From Lytechinus pictus (taxonomy: Eukaryota), in contig NC_087250.1 of NCBI RefSeq assembly GCF_037042905.1, forward strand, positions 14,882,001 to 14,946,000: a stretch of DNA of 64,000 nt, in the 5' to 3' direction. The notes beneath the pieces were generated by a model. That model saw nothing but the letters and a program-made list of their open reading frames with translations. It made no database searches and was not told the origin of the DNA. The position numbers were made by a program, and so were the translations under genes. Shown here piece after piece: positions 40,701 to 64,000 of the stretch (the stretch's first letter is position 1; each line of letters starts with the position of its first letter).

Positions 40701-43700
40701 CATTGACCCTAAATGACCTTTGACCTTGGTCATGTGACATGAAACTCAGGCAGGATGTTCAGTAATACTTGATTAACCTTATGGCCAAGTTTCATGAACT
40801 AGGTCCATATACTTTCTAAGTTATGCTGTCATTTCAAAAACTTAACCTCAGGTTAAGATTTGGTGTTGACGCCGCCGTCGCCGCCGCCGTCGCCGCCGCC
40901 GTCGCCGTCGGAAAAGCGGCGCCTATAGTCTCACTCTGCTATGCAGGTGAGACAAAAACTTACTGTCGTATTTTGGTTGCAAAAACGTACTAAATATGCC
41001 AAAAACATACTGGTTGGCAGCTCTGCAATTCCATAGAATATGTACGTCTGACCCTACGTATGTGAGACTTTTGTGAAATTTTCTTTCACTGATTTCTGGT
41101 TCTTTTGACAGTCTGTAATGCTCTCAAATGATCATGACTTGGTCAGATCATGAAGTGATGTAAAACTTGAGAAAAATGGGGATCGGACATACAAAAAGGT
41201 TGATCACTTTACGGAATTGCCCCCATACTGACCTTGTCCATACTCTATTCCAGCTAGGAGTTGTGGTCCACAGTGTCAATTCCTTCTCGTCTGTGCATGC
41301 TGCAAAGTACATCCCGCTCCCAGAGAAGGCTGCAGCTAGAACACGCCCAGTCGGAACATGGGGGTCTCTGTCAGGGAGAAATTTACTTGTCATAAATAGG
41401 GCCTATCTTTTCTACTTTTTACTTGGGCCAAATAAACTCAGATTGACATACCACAGGGAATAATTTTGCTTTACAAATTTGAATAGCATTATTGGTCATA
41501 AGGGAAAAGCTCTCAACTAAGTAATGTATATGTCAAGATATGCTATACAAAAGACTTTAAGCATAGCAGTCTTTCAAAAATGTGGAGCAAATTGCGATGC
41601 GATACCAGGAAAACTATTCCCTGTACCATATTCCTTTGTGCCTTCTTTTTGAGAAACACTAAAAAATATTTTTAGGGGTATATGTCATGCATCACGTATA
41701 CCCAAGTGAGGACTTTTTTTGCTTGTCAAATTTTTCATGTTAAAAAATACCCCCCCCCCTTGGGAAATCCTGGATCCGCTCCTGAGTTAGGATCATGATA
41801 AGTGCAATATTGACCCTAACAAATGGAATTTTTATGGTATTCCATAAAAATAATACTTGTGCGTTGTACTGTTCAATACGGTACCATATTGAACAGCAAG
41901 GTAGTAGAAGTCTGTGGGATATTCATCAGATTTCAGTCTTATTTTCAATAAAAATACGCTCTCATATTGCAGAGGTAAATGATGCAGACCAACCGACATA
42001 GAGGGCATTGTTGCTTTAACCCTAACTAGGTCGGGCTTTTTTTACTGTTCTGTGGCCGGGGGGGGGTTGATTCAACCCCCCCCCCCCCCGAGATCTCGGC
42101 CGCCGATCGCGGTAGTGTGCGATGTAATCTACAAATCTGTAAGGTAAAATTTTCCAAAATAATGAGATTTTATTTTATATGAATTAATTATGCTAATTTA
42201 TGCATAAATCATACTTTTTGCTCTAATTCACTAAATAAAGCTCCTAGAATGCTAATTTTTGGTAAAAATATTCTTTGTAGCATTCTTAACAATGGCAATT
42301 GAAAAAAACTTCGGTTTGGAAATCAATTTCTTATGTATTTTATTGTTTTATGAATTTCTTATGTATTTCTTTGTTTTTCTTTGTTTTTTTCACCAGATTT
42401 ATTGCACAACCTTTTTGAAGCATAATTATGCTAAAATCAATTGATTTCAGCTGTTTGAAGTGAAAATAATCATATCTTTATGAATAAGACGAGAAAACTC
42501 AATTTGCATTGACTTTGTACACAAAATCATGTTTTGGAACAATTTTTGGTCTGACATGCACTTACAAAATGTTGCATAAATTTTGGAACCGCGTACCCAG
42601 GCATCGTAAATTTGGTCTCAAAAGATGCGCGAGACTTAAAAGTATAAACTCTGCGAGTGGCGCGGTCAAAAAATTTCGCGCGGCGGAATGATCGCAGAAA
42701 ATGTTGAGGGGAGGGTTGATTCAACCCCCCCCCCGGCCATTTTAGGGTTAAGGAAGGTCCACTTTGCTCAGCTTTTGGGACCATTTTCTCTCACTAGCAA
42801 ATTGGTTTATTCAATGACAGAATTTAATCCTGTTTACTGAAGACTAAACAAATTTAAGACAATAATTCAGTGATGGTTTATTTTTAAAACGTGGTCCAAT
42901 ATTCCAATGTTTGTATATTTTTGTACTTCTATTGTTTGAATCTAGTATTGTCATAATCTGTTAGTTAACCTCTCTTTTGCTATCACTCCTTGAGTGTATT
43001 GTGTCGGTTCATGCTTTCATTGGCATGCGTACCAAGTTGTGCGCGTACTTCAATAGTATGCGCGTATCGAGTGGACCTTCCTAATAAAAGTAATAGCAAC
43101 ACTGCTGTGTGTTGCTGCCCTCTACGTTCGTTGATGTAGACCAAGATACGCCATGTTTTTGATGCATTGCTAAAACACTCTACATGTACTATACTTTTTA
43201 TTAATCCCATGAGCAACTGACAGAGGGGGGGGGGGGCAATTCCATGAAATAATAAATCTTTTCATACATTAGAGTGAACCCCAATCTCTTTCCATTCTTT
43301 ATTTCAATTCATGGGCTGCTCAACTATAATGAAACAATAATAATAATAATATCAATAAAATAATACTTATAATACTATCAACAAAAAAATTAGAATAATA
43401 ATACAAACAATAATAACAACAATAATAATAATGATAATAATATCAATAATATAATAATTACAATACTATCAACAAAAAAATGAAAATAATAATACAAACA
43501 ATAATAACAATAATAATAATAATATCAATAATATAATAATTATAATACTATCAACAACAAAATAAAAATAATAATAAAAACAATAACAATAATAATAATA
43601 ATATCAATAAAATAATAATTATAATACTATCAACAAAAAATAAAAATAATAATACAAACAATAACAATAATAATGATAATAACATCAATAAAATGATAAT

Positions 43701-53334: not shown

Positions 53335-54686
53335 AGGACAAGTCCATCCCAACAGAAAATTGATTTGAATATAAAGAGAAAAATCCAACAAGAATAACAC
53401 TGAAAATTTCATCAAAATCGGATGTAAATTAAGAAAGTTATGACATTTTAACCCTAAAATGGCCGGGGGGGGGTTGAATCAACCCCCCCCTCTACATTTT
53501 CTGCGATCATTTCGCCGCGCGAAATTTTTTGACCGCGCCACTCGCAGAGTTTATACTTTTAAGTCTCGCGCATCTTTTGAGACAAAATTTACGACGCCCG
53601 GGTACGCGGTTCCGAAATTACGCAACATTTTGTAAGTGCATGTCAGACCAAAAATTGTTCCAAAACGTGATTTTGTGTACAAAGTCAATGCAAATTGAGT
53701 TTTCTCATCTTATTCATAAAGATATGATTATGTTTACTTTAAACAGCTGAAAGCAATTGATTTTAGCATAATTATGCTTCAAAAAGGTTGTGCAATAAAT
53801 CTGGTGAAAAAAACAAAGAAAAACAAAAGGTTGAAAAACAAAGAAATACATAAGAAATTCATAAAACAATAAAATACATAAGAAATTGATTTCCAAACCG
53901 AAGTTTTTTTCAATTGCCATTGTTAAGAATGCTACAAAGAATATTTTTACCAAAAATTAGCATTCTAGGAGCTTTATTTAGTGAATTAGAGCAAAAAGTA
54001 TGATTTATGCATTAATTAGCATAATTAATTCATATAAAATAAAATCTCATTATTTTGGAAAATTTTACCATACAGCCTTGTAGATTACATCGCACACTAC
54101 CAGCGTGCAAATTTTTGCGGCGCTCGACGGCCGAGATCTCAGGGGGGGGTTGAATCAACCCCCCCCCAGCCACAGAACAGCAAAAAAAGCCCGGCCTAGT
54201 TAGGGTTAAAGTTTCGCTTAATTTCACAAAACAGATATATGCACATCCTGGTTGGTATGCAAATTAGGAGACTGATGACGTCATCCACTCACTATTTCTT
54301 TTGTATTTTATTATATAAAATATGAAATATTCTGATTTTCTCCTCATTGTCAAGTGAAACAGTGATTAATTCCTCCCTGAACATGTGGAATAAGCATTGT
54401 TTAATACTATATGATTCAGTCAAGTTGGTCCCTATGGTCAAATCTGTAAAAAAATGAAATATTGTATAATTCAAACAATAAAAAACAAAAGAAATAGTGA
54501 GTGATGGACATCATCGACTGAGTCATTTGCATCGTGCATATCACTGTTTTGTGAAAAATAAGCGAAACTTTAAAATGCCATAACTTTCTTATTTTACATC
54601 CGATTTTGATGAAATTTTCAGTGTTATGCTAGTTTGATTTTTCTCTATTTATTCAAATCAGCATTTTGCTGGGGTGGACTTGACCT
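53335..54686. mobile_element. Kolobok/T2-like MITE (TTAA|AGG...CCT|TTAA) with a nested piggyBac-like MITE (53452-54205)
   Basis: Outer TIR aggacaagtcca.ccc / ggggtggacttgacct; inner element between TTAA 53448-53451 and 54206-54209. Confidence 0.85.
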
Positions 54687-56419
54687 TTAATGCATGTGTA
54701 TTAGGTAAGCTGATGACCTGTATAAGATCCTCTTGATTTGTTTATATCTTTGAAACACATATTACTTGAGTCTGTTCATAAAAAATACCTCACACAGACC
54801 ATCTTCTCATCTCACTTTGATGGTTCTTATACACGGTTTATTTTCAATTTTTCCAATTACCAACTCGTCTACTATCATTTGGTCTACCGTCATTTCGTCC
54901 ACTCACCATTTTGTCTAATAACCAGTTGGTCCAATAGCCATTTAGTCCATATACCATTTCGTCTAATTGGACTAAGTGTTAATTGGGCGAAATGATTGAA
55001 AATAAAATGTATATTAGACAAACTGATGATTAGACGAATGGTTATATATTGGACCAAATGGTTGTTAGATGAAATGTTGATGGACGTAATGGCACTAGAC
55101 TAAATGAAGGTAGACCATATGGTGAGTGGACGAGATGGAATTAGACGAATCAGCAATTTACCCTTATACACAGGTTCAATGTAATGAACAAATGAAAACA
55201 AATGCTGTTGATAAGAAAAGTGGTTTATTTACAAATGCAATGTAAAGAATGTTGAGATGCTATTTTACATTGCCTCTGGTGCAGAAAAAAACCATACAAG
55301 TCAGATGTGTCAGATTTAGATAACATCAACAAAAACGAAACAAAAAAATATAAAAATAATAAAAAATGTTCATGCCAAAAGAAATTGATCCACCATTCCC
55401 CCCCACCCGGGGTTCCCTTTTAGCTTTCATTATACATCGGAGGAATTGAAATGTTGAAAATGTATATTTAAAGATATTCCTTTCACTTTATTTCACTCCA
55501 AGTGATATTTTATGCCAAATATTTTCTTTGTTGAATGAGAAGATCAAACTTATTTAGTTCCTTACATAAGTGACATTTGGAGATATATTTTTTTCATGCA
55601 ATGACCCCCTCAAAAAAAAAATTACCCTACATTGAAAAAAAGAAAAAATCATTTTTGTTTTAACATGACTGAAAGAATCAAGAAAAGGAGTTAGTACACC
55701 TGAAAATGACATTTTTTCTTTTTGCAAGGTCTCATACATTGTACAAAAAATTGCTTATGCTAGTATCAATAGCTTCAAGTCCAAACTGTTAAATCAAATA
55801 CCTTTGGCAAAGCATCAGATATTACATGGATAGTTGATTTTTCTAATGGCGCTATACCAGAAAGTTGAATAAGATTCTTTTGCAACTGAGGCATCAGACA
55901 TATAATCGATAGCAGATTATTTTATTTTCATCACTATCAGAATTTTGCATTAGAATATTTCTGCAAGGCATACATTATATGGATAGTTGATTATTCAAGC
56001 ACCAATAACCCTTTATCAGAAATGTTACACAAGATTATCACTTAATATATCCCAATAAACAAATAATTTTGTTGTTTCGGTGCAAGAACATCCTTACACT
56101 GTAACACCACACTTTGACGAATTGCAAATAGCAGCACGCATAAGCGCAAGGGCGTTTCTGCATCGATGCACAAAAATGTTTTGCCGAAGGCATTCTTGCA
56201 CCGACGCATTGCAAAAAACGCCTTTCGCAGCACGCACAAGGGCATTTGTGCACCGATGCACACATTTTTTTTGCTAAGGGCATTCTTGCACCAACACGAT
56301 TTTGATGTTGATTTCTATACAAACCATGTGATACCTACACTGAGCCGTGATTGGTGGCTGCGATCCTAACAGATGACCAATCAGAGAGCAGGTTTAGGGG
56401 AGCTGTTGAGAGATACGTG

Positions 56420-56449
56420 CCATGAGCAGGAGTGTGCAATGCATCATGG
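56420..56449 (-). promoter_or_regulatory. U1A/SNF-binding-like RNA hairpin (U1 stem-loop II mimic)
   Basis: Minus strand CCAUGA-U-GC [AUUGCACACUCCU] GC-UCAUGG; AUUGCAC at the 5' side of the loop, closed by a C-G pair. Confidence 0.5.
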
Positions 56450-57460
56450 GACACGCAAGGAAAAGCAGGTCAGCTTGATCAAGGTCACAGATCATGTGAC
56501 AAGAACACATATCAGGTGACTTGTGAATATCATGTGACCCAATTATGAATGAATGTCTAAAATATTGTCATAACCATGAATTCATTTGCACCAAGTATAA
56601 AAGATGTATCACATTATAAATCCTTGAATATGACATATCATGCATCTCTATAGGATGCTATCACACTACATTAGTTTTAAAGATGAAATCTATTTCTGGT
56701 TATAAATTTGATTAACCTTTTATGTCTTTGATATTAAATATAAATAAAGGGCTCTGGACCTTCAGTTTTATTTGTGAATGAAAATTTCATCACTTTTGTA
56801 GCACTTAATTATTCAATGGGGCTAAAGTAAGTTAATTGTTATTCCAAACAGTTTATAAAAAAAAGCATTCAACTTGACCTTTTAATATCACTGTTCCCAC
56901 TGATAATATTTGTAGCTAAATCCTATGGCTGCTGGTCTGCGTGAAGCCGGAAAACTGTGCGAGTGTGAACACTCCACATCCAACAAGATAAACATTAGGC
57001 ATCCAGTGGTTAATTTATAGAGCTTGCAGGAGCCAATGAGGATCATTGGTGCATGTGCACTGGGTTCAAACCACTGACCGGTAACCAATCAGAATTGATG
57101 TTTTATGATAACCAGGATATGTCCAATAGATGTAACATTTGGGATACAGAAATCAATGGCAGAACAAGCAAAAGCCAATCATGATCATCGGTCCATCATG
57201 GGCACCATGCTCAAACCACTGACCAGTAACCAATGAGAATTGTTTCATGTTTGAGATTGATTGCTAATCTTTTGTGTTACAGGCATTGGTCTCACTAGAT
57301 CACTATCTATTGTAGAACATGGGCAAGCGTTCTGTCAGGAATTTTCAATCAAGGGTCATAGTAATCCTGATCTAGTTTACAGTCAGGAAATATTTTAATA
57401 CATTTCGTAAATTCAAAGCAAACAAACATTGAATCTCGGACATAACTGGTCACTAATCTC

Positions 57461-57499
57461 TCCACAGGGGAGTGCAACATTTTGAGTACAATCCATGAA
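57461..57499 (-). promoter_or_regulatory. PIE-like double U1A box in the proximal 3' UTR
   Basis: UUCAUGG AUUGUAC UCAAAAU GUUGCACUCC CCUGUGGA; AUUAAA at 57399-57394. Confidence 0.5.
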
Positions 57500-57515
57500 C
57501 GAAAACCTAGAGGAA

Positions 57516-57675
57516 CTATTTTTTGGCGAATGCAATTTTTAGAGTGTTTGTCGGCGTGATTTTAAATCCTTGGAGGGCATCCTTTGCTGTTCCCGACTGT
57601 TGTTCGTTAGCGAATTCCACAAAGGCGATGTCGTGTCTCCCTGGGACGAGACGGACTTCCTTGTATCCATTGAAT
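57516..57675 (-). CDS. SNRPA: U1A/SNF terminal coding exon
   Basis: [52 protein letters not shown]. Confidence 0.95.
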
Positions 57676-60600
57676 CTGTAAAAAAAGAAAGACAAAATGT
57701 AGGGTGGTAAAAAAGGACAGCACACTATGTCATATGGCTGTTTTAATTGAATTGATTAATTGTCATGCACATAACAAAAGTTGCAAAAAAATCATCTTCT
57801 GGCTCACATTTCATAATACAAACAATCACATACAAAGAATGTAAATTAAAGAACATAACACTACACATTTTATATTTCTGCTGAGGGCCGTTGGCCCCAA
57901 GAGTGAAACTAAATTAAACATTTATTAAGTTAGACATGATGTTTTTACACTGACTGGTTACCCGTTTTGATTAGCTACGTAAAACTGAAATCCGATCATC
58001 ACAGAATCAAAATGGTCACTTTTATAGGACAACTCCACCCCACAGTGGAGACACAACATATGATCATTTTCACAAATACCGGTAAGTCTTTTTTCTACAG
58101 AAGTGCCCACTCAGGGTTCCCAGCTTTTCAAGAAAACAAAATTCCCTGATTTTTCCCTGACTGGAAAAAATTAAAATAATTTTTCCTAATGCGCTGGGAA
58201 CCCTGACACTAATGTTACAATTACACAGACAAAAATGACTCCAGACTGACAAAAGCTATGTTATTTAACCAATAAGACCCCCCCCCCTCCCCCCACAGGA
58301 AGAAGATTTCACTTCAATAGGGTGGGGCATTAGGAGAACATGCCCCTACCCATCTACATCTCTATATGGCACCACCTAGATAATTATGTCAAACATTTCA
58401 CTTTCTTGCTGACGACACAATACACGATCACTTTCACAAACAAGTCGTTTTTGTACAGAAACGGTCACACAGACGGAAATGACTCAAGGCTGACATAAGC
58501 TATTAAAGATAAATTCCAGTTTTGGTAACGATCTCAAAATGACTTTTTACAGAATCTAATAAAATGACCACCCAAGTGTCTGTTTGTATGAATAAAAAAT
58601 ATGTGCCAAAGCATTCTGGAAGAAATTGTGTAATTGCTGAGAAATAAGCAAAATAAGCGCGGATTCTGTCACTTCCGTCGGGTCTTTATTTCAGCAATAA
58701 CAATACACTGTCCCACGTGTGCCTATCTGTGTTGGCGATCTTCAGTGTGAACATTTTCAGCGTAGATTTCAAGATTTCACAAAGTTCAGTTTATGTAACT
58801 GTACCAGATCTAGATCCTCGATGATATACTGACATTTAAGCCTGGTTTTACAGACTTTCTCATGAAATCGGTGTTTACTGCAACTACTCGCATTTCTCTT
58901 TGAATTATAACAAAATACAGACTACCAGTCAGTTTGGAGTCTGTTTCGTTGGTGAGACTGCAGCATTAGATAGTGATGTTTTTTTTACTTACTGCTTGAA
59001 TAAAACCTCCAACATGAGCTCATTGGTTTCTTCCGGTAAATTCGTAAGGAAGAGGATGTTATTAGGCTCATCAGGAACAACTGTGAAATAAAACAAGAAT
59101 ACATGTTATAAAATGGTGTTGTGGAACCAGGGAATAATCTGAATAAGCTTTACTAATTTTGTTATTATTTTTCCTATTTACAATGCCTATACTTTGAAAA
59201 ATATTTTATCATCATGAGAATCAGCATCTGCTTTACTTTATTTTTTATTATTAAAGGAGAATGAAACCCTTGAAACCAGCTGAATCCATATAAAAGAGAA
59301 AAATCAAAGAAACATATTGTTGAAAGTTTGAGGAAGATTTAATGAAAAATAAGAAAGTTATGAGCATTTGAATATTGAGATCACTAATGCCATGTAGATC
59401 CTCCCATTGGCAATGCGACCAAGATCTGTGATGTCACACACGTACAACTCCCTCATTACTTTAGTACTTATTTCACTTATATTCTCACTTTTATAGAGTC
59501 TATCACAAGGTGAGGTGTTCTCTTTATGAGAGGACAAGTACAGAGGTTTCACAACATTATATCATTGATGAATCGTTTGTCATATGATTAGAATGAGCAA
59601 AAAGAGATGTTTTGGGGTATATATTCAGTGTCCAAAACTGGACAACTCTCCCCTTTTGGACACTGAAAATGTACCCCAAAACATCTCTTTTTGCTCATTC
59701 TAATCATATGACAAACGATTCATCAATGATATAATGTTGTGAAACCTCTGTACTTGTCCTCTCATAAAGAGAACACCTCACCTTGTGATAGACTCTATAA
59801 AAGTGAGAATATAAGTGAAATAAGTACTAAAGTAATGAGGGAGTTGTACGTACGTGTGTGACATCACAGATCTTGGTCGCATTGCCAATGGGAGGATCTA
59901 CATGGCATTAGTGATCTCAATTTTCAAATGCTCATAACTTTCTTATTATTCATTCAATCTTCCTCAAACTTTCAACAATATGTTTCTTTGATTTTTCTCT
60001 TTGATATGGATTCAGCTGGTTTCAAGGGTTTCATTCTCCTTTAATTTTCCTCAAGTCACTATTCATATAAAATACTTGTCCTTACTTGTTTTGTTGTCTC
60101 AAACACGCTATTTACATTACATGTTGTAATTGACTTTTCGTACCAAAAGTCAATTGAAAGTGTTGATCTCTGTTGGGATAAAAATCAATGAATGATTTGA
60201 ATTGAGACTAACCTGGTGCCGGTGCAGGTGGGGCTTGTATCGGCGGTTGCCCCAGCATGGGCATGTCACCCAGCAGGGGTGGAGGCTGGTTGACTGGGGG
60301 AGCTCCAGGCATGGGGATCTGTGACGGAGGGGGGATGATGACGTCTGCGTGTCTGTTCTGCCTGTTCTTCCTTCCCTTCACTGGCTCTGTTATGGAAATC
60401 AATACACGGTTGTGAAAAAAAAACATTGAAGGAGAATGAAACTCTTGGAGCAAGTTAGCTTTTGTGAAAGCAGAAAAATCAAAGAATAAGATCAACAAAA
60501 GTTTGAGTAAAATAGGACTAGCAATAGAAGAGTTATGAGCATTTGAATGTCGAGATCACTAATGCTATGGAGATCCTCCCATTGGCAATGCGACCAAGAT

Positions 60601-63319
60601 CTATGATGTCACAGATGAACAACTCTCCCCTTTTGGACACTGAAAATATACCCCAAAACATCTCTTTTTGCTCATTCTAATCATATGACAAAATGATTCA
60701 TCAATGATATAATGTTGTGAAACCTCTGTACTTGTCCTCTCATAAAGAGAACACCTCACCTTGTGATAGACTCTATAAAAGTGAGAATATAAGTGAAATA
60801 AGTACTAAAGTAATGAGGGAGTTGTACGTGTGTGACATCACAGATCTTGGTCGCATTGCCAATGGGAGGATCTACATGGCATTAGTGATCTCGACATTCA
60901 AATGCTCATAACTTTCTTATTATTCATTCAATCTTCCTCAAACTTTCAACAATATGTTTCTTTGATTTTTCTCTTTGATATGGATTCAGCTGGTTTCAAG
61001 GGTTTCATTCTCCTTTAACAAAACGGCATTGTATTATAAATTCAAAATTGTAAAAACATTTTCTACTTTTTAAAACTGAATTTTGAAACATTTATAAACA
61101 AACCTTTTTTGTGTGATCTTCCTTTCTTTTATTGACTCTTATTTGGTATCAATACAAGGTTGTTCTAATATTATGCAATCATACAATGAAATGCAAAAAT
61201 CTTGATAATTAGTTTTCTCTATAATATTTGTTTAGCGAAGCCAACGAAAGGCTATGATTCTTGGGTAGCATCAAGAATTAATTAAAGATAATTAAAGATA
61301 TAAGGGCACTTACCGGGCAAAAAATAATTTTTCTAAATTTTTTGGGGGGGCTATTTTTCACAACTTAATGCCTAATCCTGCCACATTGGATAAGCTTTAA
61401 TACTGCAATGAATGGAGATTTTCCATGGCTCTTTTTGAGCATTTTAGGGGCAACATCGCCCCGAGCCTCAGAGTAGTTTTTTCTTCCCGAGCACTTACCC
61501 TCAGCTTTCTTCTTTTCTATCCTCTTTTCTCTTGGGACATAAGTTCCCTGGATCTTGGCGATTGCATCCGACTTCGTCTTGGAGTATTGTATCCTCTGTA
61601 ATAAAAAAATAACAAAATGGATCAGTCTTTTCATTCTAGAAAATATGCATGGATGCTGGTGTAAGTGGACATGATGATAGATGTGATATAATATAATAAT
61701 AATATTCCTCATTTATATAGCGCTTAATACATCAGAACGACGTCTCTAAGCGCTTTACAGACATATTATTACCCCGGTCATCGGATCCTTGCATGCCCGC
61801 ATACAATGTATGCACCTTCTCCACTCCCTGGGGAGCATTCCAACAAGAGTTCCAAGACTCAATTGCTAGGCATACTACATATAGGCTTTCACATCCTACC
61901 GGGTACCCATTTAACACCTGGGTGGAGAGTGGCAAAGTGTGGATTAACGCCTTGCCAAAGGACGCTAGGCCATGGTGGGATTCGAACACACGACCCTCTG
62001 ATTACAAGGCGAGAGTCAGAACCGCTACACCACGACGCTTCCATCATCAAGAAATTTACCCACATTGTGCTGCACTCAACCCAGCTGAGATGAATAGGTA
62101 CCTGACTACCTGGTAGGAAAAAAATCCTCAAATGTGTGAGTGCCTGTAGGCAGCACGGCCAAAGCCAGAGTAACAATAACATTTTGGAATCCACAGTTGA
62201 GTATATACTGTACATTGTGCAATACAATGAATTATTATGATTATTTTCAACAAACAACTTTTAATCAATGCTCGTATCCACTCTGCACAGAGCTTGAGGC
62301 AGCAATCATCACATAGAGAGTATTATTTGGACCAATCTCCAAAAAGTACTAAACTTTATGTAACAAGGGCTTATATAGTCAATTCAAATTCTGTGAAAAA
62401 AACTTGACATTGTATTTCAAAATTGTTGAGGGTCATTCAAATAAGTTGAATAATAAATTTAGTGTTCCAACGGTCCCCTTGACACAAAAGTTAGTGATTG
62501 ACCATGGGGCTGAGTTAGTTCTACGATTGGTTGCATTCATTACAGAGTATGATCAACCATATAAATCATTTCTATAATCAATTATAAGCTTTTTGTTAAT
62601 AGGGACCTTAGCCTTTGTCTTGGGGTGCTTTGAAAGAAAATATTGACAGTCAATTGCAAATTTATATTGCAATTTTACATTTGATTGATCAAATTTAGCA
62701 GTAGGAAAATCAGATTAGAATCCTTGTAAGATGTTGGATAAGCACATCAGGGCATAAAAGTTACTATTACAGTAACTTTGCCATCCAATAATAACTACCA
62801 TGGTAACTCTGATCACCAACCAAACAAATCAAAATTAAGGATTCTAGACAAGTTACCATTGGATGGCAAAGAACACTTATGCAACGGGGTCCAGAGCCCC
62901 GTAACACAGAGATTAGTGGCTAATTTGAAAGATCAATATTGATCCTTGTCAGTCTACTGAGCAAAATGCACATGCAACAATGATCTTGATAGGTCATTTC
63001 ATTTAATAGCTATTAATCGCTAACCGTTGTGTTACAATCAATAGCAAATTTGCAATTAATTGCAAGACATGTTCGAATGTTGGACCCCACAGTAGATTTG
63101 CGATTGATTGTAAAATTCCTTGTATGTAAGGCCCCCCAAATCTTACCATGGGTTTATCGTAGAAAGGAAAGCCCTGCATGGACCGCAGTGCGCTGGTAGC
63201 CGACATGATGTCTTTGAAGATTACAAAAGCTTGACCTCGCATCTTGAGGGTCTTCAACGCTACGATGTCCAAGATCTGACCAAACTGGGAGAAGATGGCA
63301 TACAGCGACTTCTTGAGTT
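57516..63319 (-). CDS. SNRPA: U1A/U2B''/SNF family snRNP protein (SNF-type, two RRMs); first exon outside the window
   Basis: complement(join(57516-57675,58993-59080,60213-60386,61499-61595,63147-63319)); RRM1 [58 protein letters not shown]2 [40 protein letters not shown]. Confidence 0.95.
58993..59080 (-). CDS. SNRPA: U1A/SNF exon (start of RRM2)
   Basis: [37 protein letters not shown]. Confidence 0.93.
59255..60040. mobile_element. Fold-back (palindromic) Kolobok/T2-like MITE
   Basis: TTAA|AGGAGAATGAAACC...GGTTTCATTCTCCT|TTAA; about 385-bp arms nearly perfectly complementary around 59638-59653. Confidence 0.88.
60213..60386 (-). CDS. SNRPA: U1A/SNF Pro-rich linker exon (174 nt, phase 1-1)
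   Basis: [66 protein letters not shown]. Confidence 0.88.
60430..61014. mobile_element. Kolobok/T2-like MITE, same family as 59255-60040
   Basis: aggagaatgaaac / gtttcattctcct ends; right 390 bp nearly identical to the right arm of the fold-back copy. Confidence 0.85.
61499..61595 (-). CDS. SNRPA: U1A/SNF exon (end of RRM1, helix C)
   Basis: [40 protein letters not shown]. Confidence 0.93.
61695..62043 (-). mobile_element. Full-length tRNA-derived SINE
   Basis: Near-identical to 44050-44398. Confidence 0.85.
63147..63319 (-). CDS. SNRPA: U1A/SNF RRM1 core exon
   Basis: [64 protein letters not shown]. Confidence 0.95.
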
Positions 63320-64000
63320 CTGTGATGGTGAGAATGGAGACATATCGATGGCAATAGGTAAATTCAGATCACATAGTTCGTGCTGTATTATAAACTGCCA
63401 AACAGGGTTTTAGCTTGAGTTCATCTACTAGCAAGTCTTTCTTAGTAGGGATGTCAACCTGAAAATTCATATCTAATTCAGATGTTGAAGATGGCCAGTG
63501 AAAACAAAAGGCCTTTGCAATTGATTTAAAATAACACTAAGAATATGGTCAAATTCTGACCAGTGGTTGCCGAGATACAGCAATTCAAATTTCCAGAAAA
63601 GGGCAATTTTCTGGCGCCAATGCAGTTTCTCACCGGCCGATACCACTACCAGTATACCTCACCACCAATATATGTCATGACAAGTCTCTCACTCTTAAAA
63701 TCTAAGTCACATTACGAGGCGAGGTCAACATAATATACCCATCATTTTTCCACATATTGCGATCGGGAATGGCTGTATTTCGGCTTCGAGTTCCGTGTCG
63801 ACGTCATCGTTCGAATTCTCAGTCAGACATAGCTTCACTTGGATTCACCATGCGCCATAATGTTGATACGGGCTGAGGTTAGCGACCAAATCATTCAAAC
63901 GAACTACCGCTGGCATGGGAATCTTTTTTAGTTTTGGTCGCTAATTTTCAGTCCATATCAACATTACGGAGAGCTAGAGCGGCGAAGCAATGTCTGATTC

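What the first reader, a model, noticed from the sequence alone, without database searches (positions are those of the whole stretch)
57394..57499. PIE-like autoregulatory element in the 3' UTR of an invertebrate SNF/U1A gene
Seen: about 25 nt after the stop codon, the mRNA-sense strand reads UUCAUGG-AUUGUAC-UCAAAAU-GUUGCACUCC-CCUGUGGA. The two boxes (57492-57486, 57478-57472) match the U1A recognition heptamer AUUGYAC with 0 and 1 mismatch. The second continues as UCC, like the U1 stem-loop II loop (AUUGCACUCC). The flanks can pair (UUCAUGG/CUGUGGA, with G-U wobbles), and an AUUAAA hexamer lies about 70 nt downstream (57399-57394). Known: vertebrate U1A inhibits its own polyadenylation through a PIE made of AUUGUAC and AUUGCAC boxes upstream of an AUUAAA signal. 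Inference: this single SNF-type gene may use the same feedback loop, which would place the circuit before the vertebrate U1A/U2B'' split. Caveats: the inner PIE stem is not evident, and the spacing to the hexamer is longer than in human.
Basis: partly seen in the sequence, partly recalled or inferred. Interest (0 to 1): 0.8.

Follow-up and report, generated by a model that had tools for sequence, protein, structure and literature searches.

The report
Sea urchin U1A gene's self-binding hairpin
The two short motifs flagged just after this sea urchin splicing-protein gene look like a variable chance match, but further along the same mRNA tail sits a hairpin that copies the protein's own docking site, a kind of hairpin that recurs in the same gene of many invertebrates and hints at an old self-limiting loop.

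Summary

As a PIE this site fails.
- The key A of box 2 is C (GUUGCCC) in another RNA-seq data set of the same species label and in a sister species.
- The hexamer reads AUUAGA in that data set.
- Transcripts run through it for at least 1.4 kb.
- Rfam's U1A_PIE model does not match.

About 1.08 kb into the same 3' UTR (56414-56457) lies a much better candidate. It is a 14-bp hairpin with AUUGCAC at the 5' side of the loop, next to a C-G closing pair, like this genome's own U1 stem-loop II.

Hairpins of this kind recur in orthologues. In 72 non-redundant SNF/U1A loci from environmental contigs (copepod-, annelid-, bryozoan-, mollusc- and hydrozoan-like), 3' UTRs hold ATTGCAC 49 times on the sense strand and 2 on the antisense. 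It is the second most widespread 7-mer. The hairpins are islands of identity in otherwise unalignable UTRs.

The broader idea, self-binding that predates vertebrates, gains real support. Binding, mechanism and conservation of the urchin hairpin are untested.

The parts
57519..57675 (-). Last coding exon of the SNF/U1A gene (C-terminal RRM2). The stop codon TAG is at 57518-57516.
   Evidence: Translation and tblastn to echinoid proteins. The acceptor at 57675 is confirmed by 79 X19 reads and an X1 contig whose loose end is the previous exon.
58992..59081 (-). Coding exon ([30 protein letters not shown]).
   Evidence: tblastn, 100% to P0001/P0003.
60214..60387 (-). Coding exon (proline-rich linker).
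   Evidence: tblastn, 98% to P0003.
61497..61595 (-). Coding exon (end of RRM1 and the basic stretch [10 protein letters not shown]). The 3' boundary is approximate.
   Evidence: tblastn; aligned to human U1A 103-119 through P0003.
63147..63320 (-). Coding exon (core of RRM1, the RNA-binding domain). The first exon was not located.
   Evidence: tblastn, 100% to P0003.
56000..57515 (-). 3' UTR as far as it was examined. It is transcribed continuously on the minus strand and its true end was not determined.
   Evidence: Stranded RNA reads of X19 cover every bin down to 56000. Organism-B contig X12 record 12 spans 56123-57675 and runs on into upstream exons. No pile-up of molecule ends was reported.
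57486..57492 (-).
   Evidence: Boxes of this type are at background in orthologous UTRs (6 sense against 6 antisense).
57469..57478 (-). It reads GUUGCCCUUC in X19, and GUUGCCC in organism B.
   Evidence: Variants 57473 T>G (116/117 X19 reads; X5 and X12 contigs) and 57470 G>A (117/117 X19 reads).
57394..57399 (-). AUUAAA hexamer. It is not the main poly(A) signal and reads AUUAGA in X19.
   Evidence: 57395 T>C in 81 of 81 X19 reads. Depth recovers to 124-142 at 56885-57061, and contigs run through.
56414..56457 (-). Hairpin B, a mimic of U1 stem-loop II. It has a 14-bp stem with two bulges, a C-G closing pair (56441/56427) and a 13-nt loop AUUGCAC-ACUCCU. The box is at 56440-56434.
   Evidence: Sequence. 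Unconstrained MFE -20.2 kcal/mol, z -1.81, 7 of 200 shuffles as good; that fold also pairs the first A of the box with the last loop U. Constrained hairpin -15.1 kcal/mol, best of 25 boxes in the window; 2 of 3000 random flanks reach it. It is the only one of 87 boxes in 264 kb of this genome with a C-G-closed hairpin at <=-5. Single copy.
56767..56772 (-). AAUAAA, a candidate internal poly(A) signal. Others are AUUAAA at 56886-56881 and AAUAAA at 55926-55921 and 55492-55487. Use of any of them is not shown.
   Evidence: Motif scan. A depth trough of 5.7-27 at 56590-56825 lies between about 140 and about 100 and is unexplained.

Best explanation
The twin boxes at 57469-57492 are most likely a chance, allele-specific resemblance and not a polyadenylation inhibition element.

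The gene's real candidate self-binding site is hairpin B (56414-56457), about 1.08 kb into a 3' UTR of at least 1.4 kb. It presents AUUGCAC at the 5' side of a loop closed by a C-G pair. That is the way this genome's own U1 snRNA stem-loop II presents its loop (AUUGCACUCC closed by C-G).

Hairpin B belongs to a class found here: GC-AUUGCAC-N3-7-GC hairpins that recur in the sense 3' UTR of SNF/U1A mRNAs of many non-vertebrate animals and are kept while the surrounding UTR diverges.

Inferred mechanism: SNF protein not held in snRNPs binds the hairpin through RRM1 and lowers the output of its own mRNA, giving negative feedback.

Shown here: the hairpin, its rarity, its presence in transcribed RNA, and the recurrence and local conservation of the class.

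Inferred only: binding by SNF, the sign of the effect, and the step affected (3' processing or polyadenylation, export, stability or translation). The vertebrate way, two U1A molecules blocking poly(A) polymerase next to the poly(A) signal, does not fit a single hairpin that lies hundreds of bases from any canonical hexamer.
For: Against the flagged site.
- Box 2 reads GUUGCCC in 116/117 X19 reads and in organism-B contigs X5 and X12.
- The hexamer reads AUUAGA in 81/81 X19 reads.
- Coverage and contigs run through the hexamer.
- No RF00460 hit, and an ordinary fold with z -0.25.

For hairpin B.
- Sequence and fold.
- Constrained energy -15.1 kcal/mol, reached by 2 of 3000 random flanks.
- Only 1 of 87 boxes in 264 kb of the genome has a C-G-closed hairpin at <=-5, and it is hairpin B itself.
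- X19 depth there is about 100, all on the mRNA's strand.
- The genome's own U1 loop is AUUGCACUCC closed by C-G.
- RRM1 is nearly identical to human U1A RRM1.

For the class, in 72 non-redundant loci.
- 59 boxes in sense 3' UTRs against a mean of 9.9 and a maximum of 18 in 200 shuffles.
- 25 strict hairpins against a mean of 0.12 and a maximum of 2.
- Controls: antisense 9 boxes and 0 hairpins, CDS sense 5 and 1, CDS antisense 6 and 0, upstream 6 and 0.
- ATTGCAC occurs 49 times sense against 2 antisense. It ranks 4th of 12,878 7-mers by count and 2nd by number of loci (33 of 72).
- 37 of 38 stems close with C-G, and 21 of 38 loops are 10 nt.
- The hairpins are islands of identity with variable spacer letters.
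- Hosts by similarity: copepod-, annelid-, bryozoan-, crab- and mollusc-like and hydrozoan-like (L029 is 80% identical to a Hydra U1A).
Against: - Conservation of hairpin B in the sister species could not be read, because the variant table showed 40 of 238 rows.
- The covariance model built from 21 ten-nucleotide-loop hairpins scores hairpin B at only 10.0 bits: E 4.2 and rank 11 of 22 in the whole window, E 0.11 and rank 2 in the UTR alone.
- Its 13-nt loop is the rarer form (5 of 38).
- The unconstrained fold pairs the first A of the box with the last loop U, so the box-free loop is the constrained form only.
- It is a single site. It lies about 330 nt after AAUAAA at 56772 and about 500 nt before AAUAAA at 55926.
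- The depth trough at 56590-56825 leaves open that many mRNAs end before the hairpin.
- 37 of 72 loci have no box in the UTR sequence available. Among them are all the mite-like loci with 72-84% best-hit identity and several beetle-like loci.
- Taxa of the environmental contigs rest on similarity only.
- Nothing here measures binding or regulation.
Confidence: 0.55

Rival explanations
1. The AUUGUAC and GUUGCAC boxes at 57472-57492 form a PIE-like element that binds two SNF molecules and inhibits polyadenylation at the AUUAAA about 70 nt downstream.
For: The boxes, the UCC tail and the hexamer are present in the window allele. The pair is rarer than chance in the window, 1 against 0.12 expected. 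GUUGCACUCC matches 9 of 10 letters of the genome's own U1 loop. Organism B keeps AUUAAA.
Against: Box 2 reads GUUGCCC in X19 (116/117 reads) and in organism B. The hexamer reads AUUAGA in X19 (81/81 reads). There is no net loss of coverage after the hexamer and no pile-up of ends. No RF00460 match. The fold is ordinary and pairs the boxes with each other. Neither box has the C-G closing pair seen in 37 of 38 class members. AUUGUAC is not enriched in orthologous UTRs.
Confidence: 0.06
2. Neither site works. Hairpin B is a chance hairpin, or the relic of an inverted repeat, and this urchin gene has no 3' UTR feedback even though other lineages do.
For: Real genomes hold more hairpins than random models predict: another AUUGCAC-loop hairpin of -10.4 kcal/mol lies at 41793-41816 outside the gene. 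The covariance model match is weak. Half of the orthologous loci lack any box. Conservation in the sister species is unseen.
Against: The joint chance of a sense-strand box in a 1.6-kb UTR (about 0.26, from 87 boxes per 528 kb of strand) times a C-G-closed hairpin of this strength is small: 0 of 86 other boxes and 2 of 3000 random flanks. The architecture (GC-box-spacer-GC plus an outer stem with a bulge) parallels the hydrozoan-like hairpins. The region is single copy, not a repeat.
Confidence: 0.25
3. Hairpin B and the class are functional but are not feedback sensors. For example, they could bind another protein, or recruit newly made SNF for snRNP assembly or mRNA localisation.
For: No regulatory read-out exists. 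Distances from the last box to the poly(A) tail in the 5 box-bearing contigs that end in poly(A) vary from 55 to 252 nt, unlike the fixed position of the PIE (PMC6884704, passages).
Against: The conserved letters are exactly the heptamer and C-G pair of the cognate U1 loop, while the spacer letters vary. The element sits in the mRNA of the very protein that reads that loop, as in the vertebrate precedent.
Confidence: 0.08
4. Both sites count in the window's haplotype. A recent A allele at 57473 created a second, weak SNF site that adds to hairpin B.
For: The window and X1 allele gives a 9-of-10 match to the U1 loop.
Against: There is no closing pair or stem. The allele is absent from X19 and from organism B. 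I recall, without a call to support it, that unstructured boxes bind U1A far more weakly.
Confidence: 0.06

Closest known systems
Vertebrate U1A polyadenylation inhibition element (PIE; Rfam RF00460 U1A_PIE)
   Same: It is a binding site for the gene's own protein, copied from the U1 stem-loop II loop and placed in the sense 3' UTR of the U1A/SNF mRNA. Several invertebrate-like loci carry two sites 24-35 nt apart (L007, L013, L025, L040, L053), which recalls the PIE's two boxes.
   Different: The PIE is a single conserved structure of about 47-53 nt just upstream of the poly(A) signal, at a conserved distance, and binds two U1A molecules (PMC5071671, PMC6884704, PMC3157836; passages). Here the sites are ordinary hairpin loops, one to four per UTR, at variable distance from the 3' end. 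RF00460 matches neither the urchin UTR nor any of 20 hairpin-bearing loci at E<=1. [quoted passage not shown]
U1 snRNA stem-loop II, the cognate SNF/U1A site
   Same: AUUGCAC at the 5' side of the loop directly after a C-G closing pair, followed by spacer letters. The genome's own U1 reads CC-AUUGCACUCC-GG. Most class members have the same 10-nt loop size (21 of 38).
   Different: Hairpin B has a 13-nt loop and an unrelated, bulged stem. It lies in an mRNA, not an snRNA. There is no RF00003 hit in the UTR.
PIE-like U1A sites in other mRNAs (SMN2, as reviewed)
   Same: U1A-type boxes in a 3' UTR are used to lower mRNA output (PMC9977717, passages).
   Different: Those act on other genes in mammals. 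The case here is self-targeting in non-vertebrates.
U1 stem-loop II mimics in introns of fungal U1A genes
   Same: A copy of the protein's docking hairpin inside its own gene, outside vertebrates.
   Different: Those are reported over splice signals in introns, suggesting splicing-level control. They were not examined here. The urchin gene's one intronic AUUGCAC (62223-62217) has no C-G-closed hairpin.

Membership tests
Vertebrate U1A PIE (RF00460), tested on the flagged site 57469-57492 | Two U1A heptamer boxes (AUUGCAC / AUUGUAC type) kept across related species | tested here: not met
   The window allele has AUUGUAC plus GUUGCAC (one mismatch). Box 2 reads GUUGCCC in 116/117 X19 reads and in organism-B contigs X5 and X12.
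Vertebrate U1A PIE (RF00460), tested on the flagged site 57469-57492 | Conserved secondary structure presenting the boxes (match to the family's covariance model) | tested here: not met
   No RF00460 hit at E<=10 in 57200-57700 and none in the whole genome. The MFE has z -0.25 and pairs the boxes with each other.
Vertebrate U1A PIE (RF00460), tested on the flagged site 57469-57492 | Sits just upstream of the poly(A) signal that is actually used, at a conserved distance | tested here: not met
   Coverage recovers to 124-142 downstream, contigs run through to 56123, and no ends pile up. The hexamer reads AUUAGA in 81/81 X19 reads.
Vertebrate U1A PIE (RF00460), tested on the flagged site 57469-57492 | Two protein molecules bind and inhibit poly(A) polymerase through the motif at U1A 103-119 | not testable with these tools
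   Alignment of an echinoid orthologue (P0003) to human U1A shows a basic stretch, [10 protein letters not shown], opposite ERDRKREKRK. The need for residues 103-119 comes from PMC5071671 (passage).
U1 stem-loop II type SNF/U1A binding hairpin, tested on hairpin B 56414-56457 | AUUGCAC at the 5' side of the loop | tested here: met
   Box at 56440-56434, at the start of the loop.
U1 stem-loop II type SNF/U1A binding hairpin, tested on hairpin B 56414-56457 | C-G loop-closing pair next to the heptamer, with spacer letters 3' of it | tested here: met
   C56441-G56427, with the 6-nt spacer ACUCCU. The genome's own U1 has a C-G pair and the spacer UCC.
U1 stem-loop II type SNF/U1A binding hairpin, tested on hairpin B 56414-56457 | Stable stem beyond chance | tested here: met
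   -15.1 kcal/mol when constrained, reached by 2 of 3000 random flanks. It is the only one of 87 boxes in 264 kb with a C-G-closed hairpin. Local z is -1.81.
U1 stem-loop II type SNF/U1A binding hairpin, tested on hairpin B 56414-56457 | Bound by the SNF/U1A RRM1 | not testable with these tools
   Only an inference, from the near-identity of RRM1 to human U1A.
3' UTR stem-loop II mimics of SNF/U1A mRNAs (class defined here from L007-L086) | Lies on the sense strand of the transcribed 3' UTR of a SNF/U1A orthologue | tested here: met
   Stranded reads at a depth of about 100 over 56354-56471, and contigs joined to the coding exon.
3' UTR stem-loop II mimics of SNF/U1A mRNAs (class defined here from L007-L086) | Match to a covariance model built from other members (R1, 21 hairpins with 10-nt loops) | tested here: inconclusive
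   10.0 bits. E 4.2 and rank 11 of 22 in the window; E 0.11 and rank 2 in the UTR. The model has only 26 positions and penalises the 13-nt loop and the bulge.
3' UTR stem-loop II mimics of SNF/U1A mRNAs (class defined here from L007-L086) | Kept in related species while the flanks diverge | not tested
   Seen for two other groups.

The most novel reading that the evidence does not exclude
Self-binding of SNF/U1A to U1 stem-loop II mimic hairpins in its own 3' UTR is an ancestral animal feedback loop. It is present in cnidarian-like, arthropod-like, lophotrochozoan-like and echinoid mRNAs. On this reading the vertebrate PIE is a late, compacted two-box derivative that became coupled to poly(A) polymerase, and GCAUUGCAC is the signature motif of these UTRs.
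Probability: 0.5. Interest if true: 0.78.

Novelty: new variant of a known kind. Interest (0 to 1): 0.64.

Why it matters
U1A autoregulation through the PIE is a textbook case of an RNA-binding protein limiting itself. In the texts I could read it is described only for vertebrates (passages of PMC5071671, PMC6884704 and PMC3157836).

If hairpin-type self-sites are general in invertebrate SNF mRNAs, three things follow.
- The circuit is much older than the U1A/U2B'' duplication.
- It does not depend on the vertebrate poly(A) polymerase tail.
- The step it acts on in invertebrates becomes an open question that can be tested directly.

It also gives a simple predictive motif, GC-AUUGCAC-N3-7-GC in the sense 3' UTR, for annotating such sites.

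Six searches of the held library found no description of this outside vertebrates. Older subscription papers on Drosophila SNF, and three Gunderson/Mattaj-laboratory papers that I asked for by id, are not held. Prior mention there cannot be excluded.

Tried and rejected
- Run index: no RNA holder was listed. Raw RNA runs were added by species label and one was laid.
- Rfam scans of the whole UTR gave only chance-level hits far under the gathering scores, with no U1A_PIE and no U1. RF00460 also found nothing in 20 hairpin-bearing loci at E<=1.
- The covariance model R1 was too weak to discriminate. Its top window hit, 55225-55249 (-), is a CAUUGCA loop that lacks the seventh box letter.
- The first MAFFT alignment of 35 hairpins put its gaps at the ends and misaligned the longer loops (A2). 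It was dropped in favour of the 21 ten-nucleotide-loop rows (A3).
- The pair counts on A3 (89.5% of cells paired, 0 of 500 shuffles as high) are biased, because rows were chosen for having at least 3 pairs. I do not use them as evidence.
- An intronic sense AUUGCAC at 62223-62217 has no C-G-closed hairpin.
- miRNA reading: the listing shows AUUGCAC mostly in papers on the miR-25/92/367 family. I recall that it is their seed. A target site would be the complement, and that is not enriched (2 antisense), so I rejected this reading.
- Earlier notes of this scan, near the place and for look-alike stretches: nothing.
The null rests on 264 kb.
- Papers PMC2080603, PMC413783 and PMC153202 are not held.
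- Organism B's letters at hairpin B and at box 1 could not be read, because 198 rows were not shown.
Full report
WHAT IS THERE. The window carries, on the minus strand, a two-RRM SNF/U1A gene of an echinoid. Its last exon (57675-57519, stop TAG 57518-57516) is 96, 94 and 92% identical to the orthologues of three sea urchins. Four further exons were placed by tblastn. The gene's 3' end is single copy in the 812-Mb genome.

IS THE FLAGGED SITE MORE THAN CHANCE? One ATTGYAC box means nothing: there are 20 in the window against 21.2 expected. A pair within 30 nt, allowing R at the first letter of the second box, occurs once against 0.12 expected per window. That would be notable so close to the stop of this particular gene. 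The fold of the first 137 nt of the UTR is ordinary, however (-24.6 against -23.75 kcal/mol, z -0.25), and it pairs the two boxes with each other. Rfam's U1A_PIE model (RF00460, 74 positions, gathering score 50 bits) gives no hit at E<=10 on 57200-57700, none on 55300-57250, and none in the whole genome.

WHAT THE READS SAY. The run index listed runs of the same species label (organism A) and of a relative (organism B). I laid one raw, stranded, rRNA-depleted RNA run of organism A (X19), one contig set of organism A (X1) and two of organism B (X5, X12) on 56000-57750.
- X19 reads lie almost only in the orientation expected for a minus-strand RNA.
- 79 X19 reads and an X1 contig cross the acceptor at 57675 into the previous exon.
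- Depth is 141 in the exon and 113, 79, 42 and 33 across 57474-57239. That stretch holds a 198-nt indel allele and many differences.
- Depth then rises again to 95-142 at 57120-56885, falls to 5.7-27 at 56825-56590, returns to 75-102 at 56530-56295, and declines to 20 at 56000.
- No pile-up of molecule ends was reported.
- A spliced contig of organism B (X12 record 12, 1675 nt) covers 56123-57675 in one piece.

The 3' UTR is therefore at least 1.4 kb long, and the AUUAAA at 57399 is not where the mRNA ends.

The flagged letters also vary.
- Plus-strand 57473 T>G (116 of 117 X19 reads, and both organism-B contigs) makes box 2 GUUGCCC.
- 57470 G>A (117 of 117 reads) makes the UCC tail UUC.
- 57480 T>A (116 of 116 reads) changes the spacer.
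- 57395 T>C (81 of 81 reads) makes the hexamer AUUAGA.

Since organism B shares the C, the A looks derived. Box 1 showed no listed change, but only 40 of 238 variant rows were printed, so I cannot say it is kept.

A BETTER SITE IN THE SAME UTR. One search also listed a sense-strand AUUGCAC at 56440-56434. Read in context, it opens the loop of a hairpin spanning 56457-56414. The stem has 6, 6 and 2 base pairs with two bulges. A C-G pair lies directly before the box, and the loop is AUUGCAC-ACUCCU. The unconstrained minimum-energy fold finds the same stem, though it also pairs the first A of the box with the last loop U (-20.2 kcal/mol, z -1.81, 7 of 200 shuffles as good).

With the box forced open and the pair next to it forced closed, the hairpin is worth -15.1 kcal/mol. 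That is the best of 25 boxes in the window, and 2 of 3000 boxes set in random flanks of UTR composition reach it. In 264 kb of this genome (20 stretches of 10 kb plus the window) there are 87 ATTGYAC boxes on both strands. Hairpin B is the only one with a C-G-closed hairpin at <=-5 kcal/mol. The stretch is single copy. The genome's own U1 snRNA (42 scored matches) presents its stem-loop II loop as CC-AUUGCACUCC-GG, so the UTR hairpin copies the cognate site's logic. The RRM1 of the echinoid protein is almost identical to that of human U1A.

THE SAME DEVICE IN OTHER ANIMALS. I could not fetch other echinoid genomes. Instead I scanned the metagenome and metatranscriptome contigs with an alignment of 16 SNF/U1A proteins (A1). 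Of 229 confirmed stretches, 80 loci were returned. Most are cDNA-like contigs with a whole reading frame and 60-1000+ nt after the stop. One locus (L086) was dropped because only RRM1 matched. Seven near-duplicates were removed, leaving 72 loci and 38,533 nt of 3' UTR, capped at 1000 nt each.

Counts for ATTGCAC, ATTGTAC and ATTGCAG boxes:
- Sense strand: 59 boxes, against a mean of 9.9 and a maximum of 18 in 200 dinucleotide shuffles.
- Strict hairpins (C-G pair next to the box, spacer of 3-8 nt, at least 4 pairs): 25, against a mean of 0.12 and a maximum of 2.
- Loci with a box: 35 of 72, against 9.0 expected.
- Loci with a strict hairpin: 18 of 72, against 0.12 expected.
- Controls in the same loci: UTR antisense 9 boxes and 0 hairpins; CDS sense 5 and 1; CDS antisense 6 and 0; up to 1 kb upstream 6 and 0.

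The signal is specific to AUUGCAC: 49 sense against 2 antisense, while ATTGTAC is 6 against 6 and the 21 single-mismatch variants average 3.0 each. Without any prior, ATTGCAC ranks 4th of 12,878 7-mers by count and 2nd by number of loci (33 of 72). It comes behind only its own overlap CATTGCA (35 loci) and ahead of AAATAAA (27 loci). Of the 59 boxes, 41 follow GC. Of the 38 stems, 37 close with C-G. Loops are 10 nt in 21 cases, 11 in 7, 12 in 4, 13 in 5 and 14 in 1.

SELECTION. In seven copepod- or annelid-like loci, the only invariant columns of a 178-column alignment are UGUGC-AUUGCAC-nnn-GCACAA plus one A five columns downstream. The three spacer letters vary, and the flanks do not align. 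In five hydrozoan-like loci the same holds for CUUG..GC-AUUGCAC-...-GCUCA.G. That stem, an outer helix, a small bulge and then GC/GC, has the same layout as the urchin hairpin.

TAXA. By blastx against named proteins, the hairpin-bearing loci are closest to a copepod (64-88%), a bryozoan (85%), a crab (81%), annelids (73-76%), molluscs and beetles. L029 is 80% identical to a Hydra U1A. These are assignments by similarity, not identifications.

LIMITS OF THE CLASS. It is not universal. 37 of 72 loci show no box in the sequence available, among them all the mite-like loci with 72-84% best-hit identity, and 13 of the 16 loci under 60% identity. None of 20 hairpin-bearing loci matches RF00460 at E<=1, so these are not PIEs by the family model.

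ARRANGEMENT. Six of the 72 loci carry two or three boxes 24-37 nt apart (L007, L013, L024, L025, L040, L053; in L024 only one of the two boxes has a stem by my criteria), and L014 has a pair 16 nt apart. Eight contigs end in poly(A), and five of them have boxes. In those five the last box lies 55-252 nt from the end. The urchin has one strong site.

HOW IT PROBABLY WORKS. In vertebrates two U1A molecules bind the PIE just upstream of the poly(A) signal. [quoted passage not shown] The echinoid protein keeps a basic stretch opposite that motif, [10 protein letters not shown] against ERDRKREKRK, which does not settle anything.

A single hairpin about 330 nt after one AAUAAA (56772) and about 500 nt before the next (55926) does not fit the vertebrate geometry. 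I therefore commit only to this: free SNF binds hairpin B and lowers the output of its own mRNA. The step is open. It could be use of the distal 3' end, nuclear retention, decay or translation. Binding and effect are inferred, not shown.

WEAK POINTS.
- I could not read organism B's letters at hairpin B.
- A covariance model from 21 ten-nucleotide-loop hairpins (A3, R1) gives hairpin B only 10.0 bits: E 4.2 and rank 11 of 22 in the window, E 0.11 and rank 2 in the UTR.
- The pair statistics on A3 are biased by how the rows were chosen.
- The depth trough at 56590-56825 could be AT-rich bias, or use of the AUUAAA/AAUAAA at 56886/56772. In the second case only a long isoform would carry the hairpin.

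NOVELTY. Six searches of the held library found the PIE described for vertebrates and mammals only, and nothing on invertebrate SNF 3' UTR sites. Three key papers and most older subscription papers are not held. Two unchecked AI notes of this scan report stem-loop II mimics in introns of fungal U1A genes, which would fit a wider habit of U1A genes carrying their own docking hairpin. I did not test them.

VERDICT. The PIE reading of that site is not supported.

Noticed in passing
window 57138-57337: A 198-nt insertion/deletion allele inside the 3' UTR. An X1 contig and 11 X19 reads join 57138 to 57337 with 17 other letters in between, and the ends are not intron-like. The stretch holds near-repeats of a 'ggttac.ggtcagtggtttga' segment (57230-57260 and 57060-57090).
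   Followed up: partly
window 56060-56300: Roughly 60-nt repeats ('ggtgcaagaatgcc...tgtgcatcg(g/a)tgca') in the distal UTR. Contig depth is several times the neighbours' (up to 1060 in X12), and contigs of all runs break here. This looks like a dispersed repeat family.
   Followed up: no
window 56590-56825: RNA depth falls to 5.7-27 between regions of about 140 and about 100 on the same strand. The stretch is very AT-rich and holds AAUAAA (56772), just downstream of AUUAAA (56886). It could be library bias or alternative polyadenylation; this is undecided.
   Followed up: partly
window 59350-61020: Introns of the SNF gene hold several copies, in both orientations, of one repeated element. The same open frames, for example '[19 protein letters not shown]' and '[41 protein letters not shown]', appear on both strands at 59251-59561, 59730-60044, 60492-60804 and 60708-61018.
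   Followed up: no
window 41793-41816 (-): Another hairpin with AUUGCAC in its loop (9-bp stem, U-A next to the box, -10.4 kcal/mol), far outside the SNF gene. It shows that such loops can arise from inverted repeats.
   Followed up: partly
window 42401-42407 (+) and 53790-53796 (-): Two AUUGCAC boxes lie in identical 44-nt contexts on opposite strands 11 kb apart. They are probably two copies of one element in inverted orientation.
   Followed up: no
G000:C2:31961190-32010256 and G000:C8:33237223-33284622: U1 snRNA genes stand in a tandem array with a period of about 1405 bp (35 of the 42 scored hits). U2 snRNA genes stand in an array with a period of about 1037 bp (45 of the 48 scored hits).
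   Followed up: no
L040:2176-2228; L025:769-863; L053:1397-1451; L013:844-899; L007:961-1013: Tandem stem-loop II mimics 24-35 nt apart in single 3' UTRs. In L040 they lie 55-80 nt from the poly(A) tail, the most PIE-like geometry seen.
   Followed up: partly
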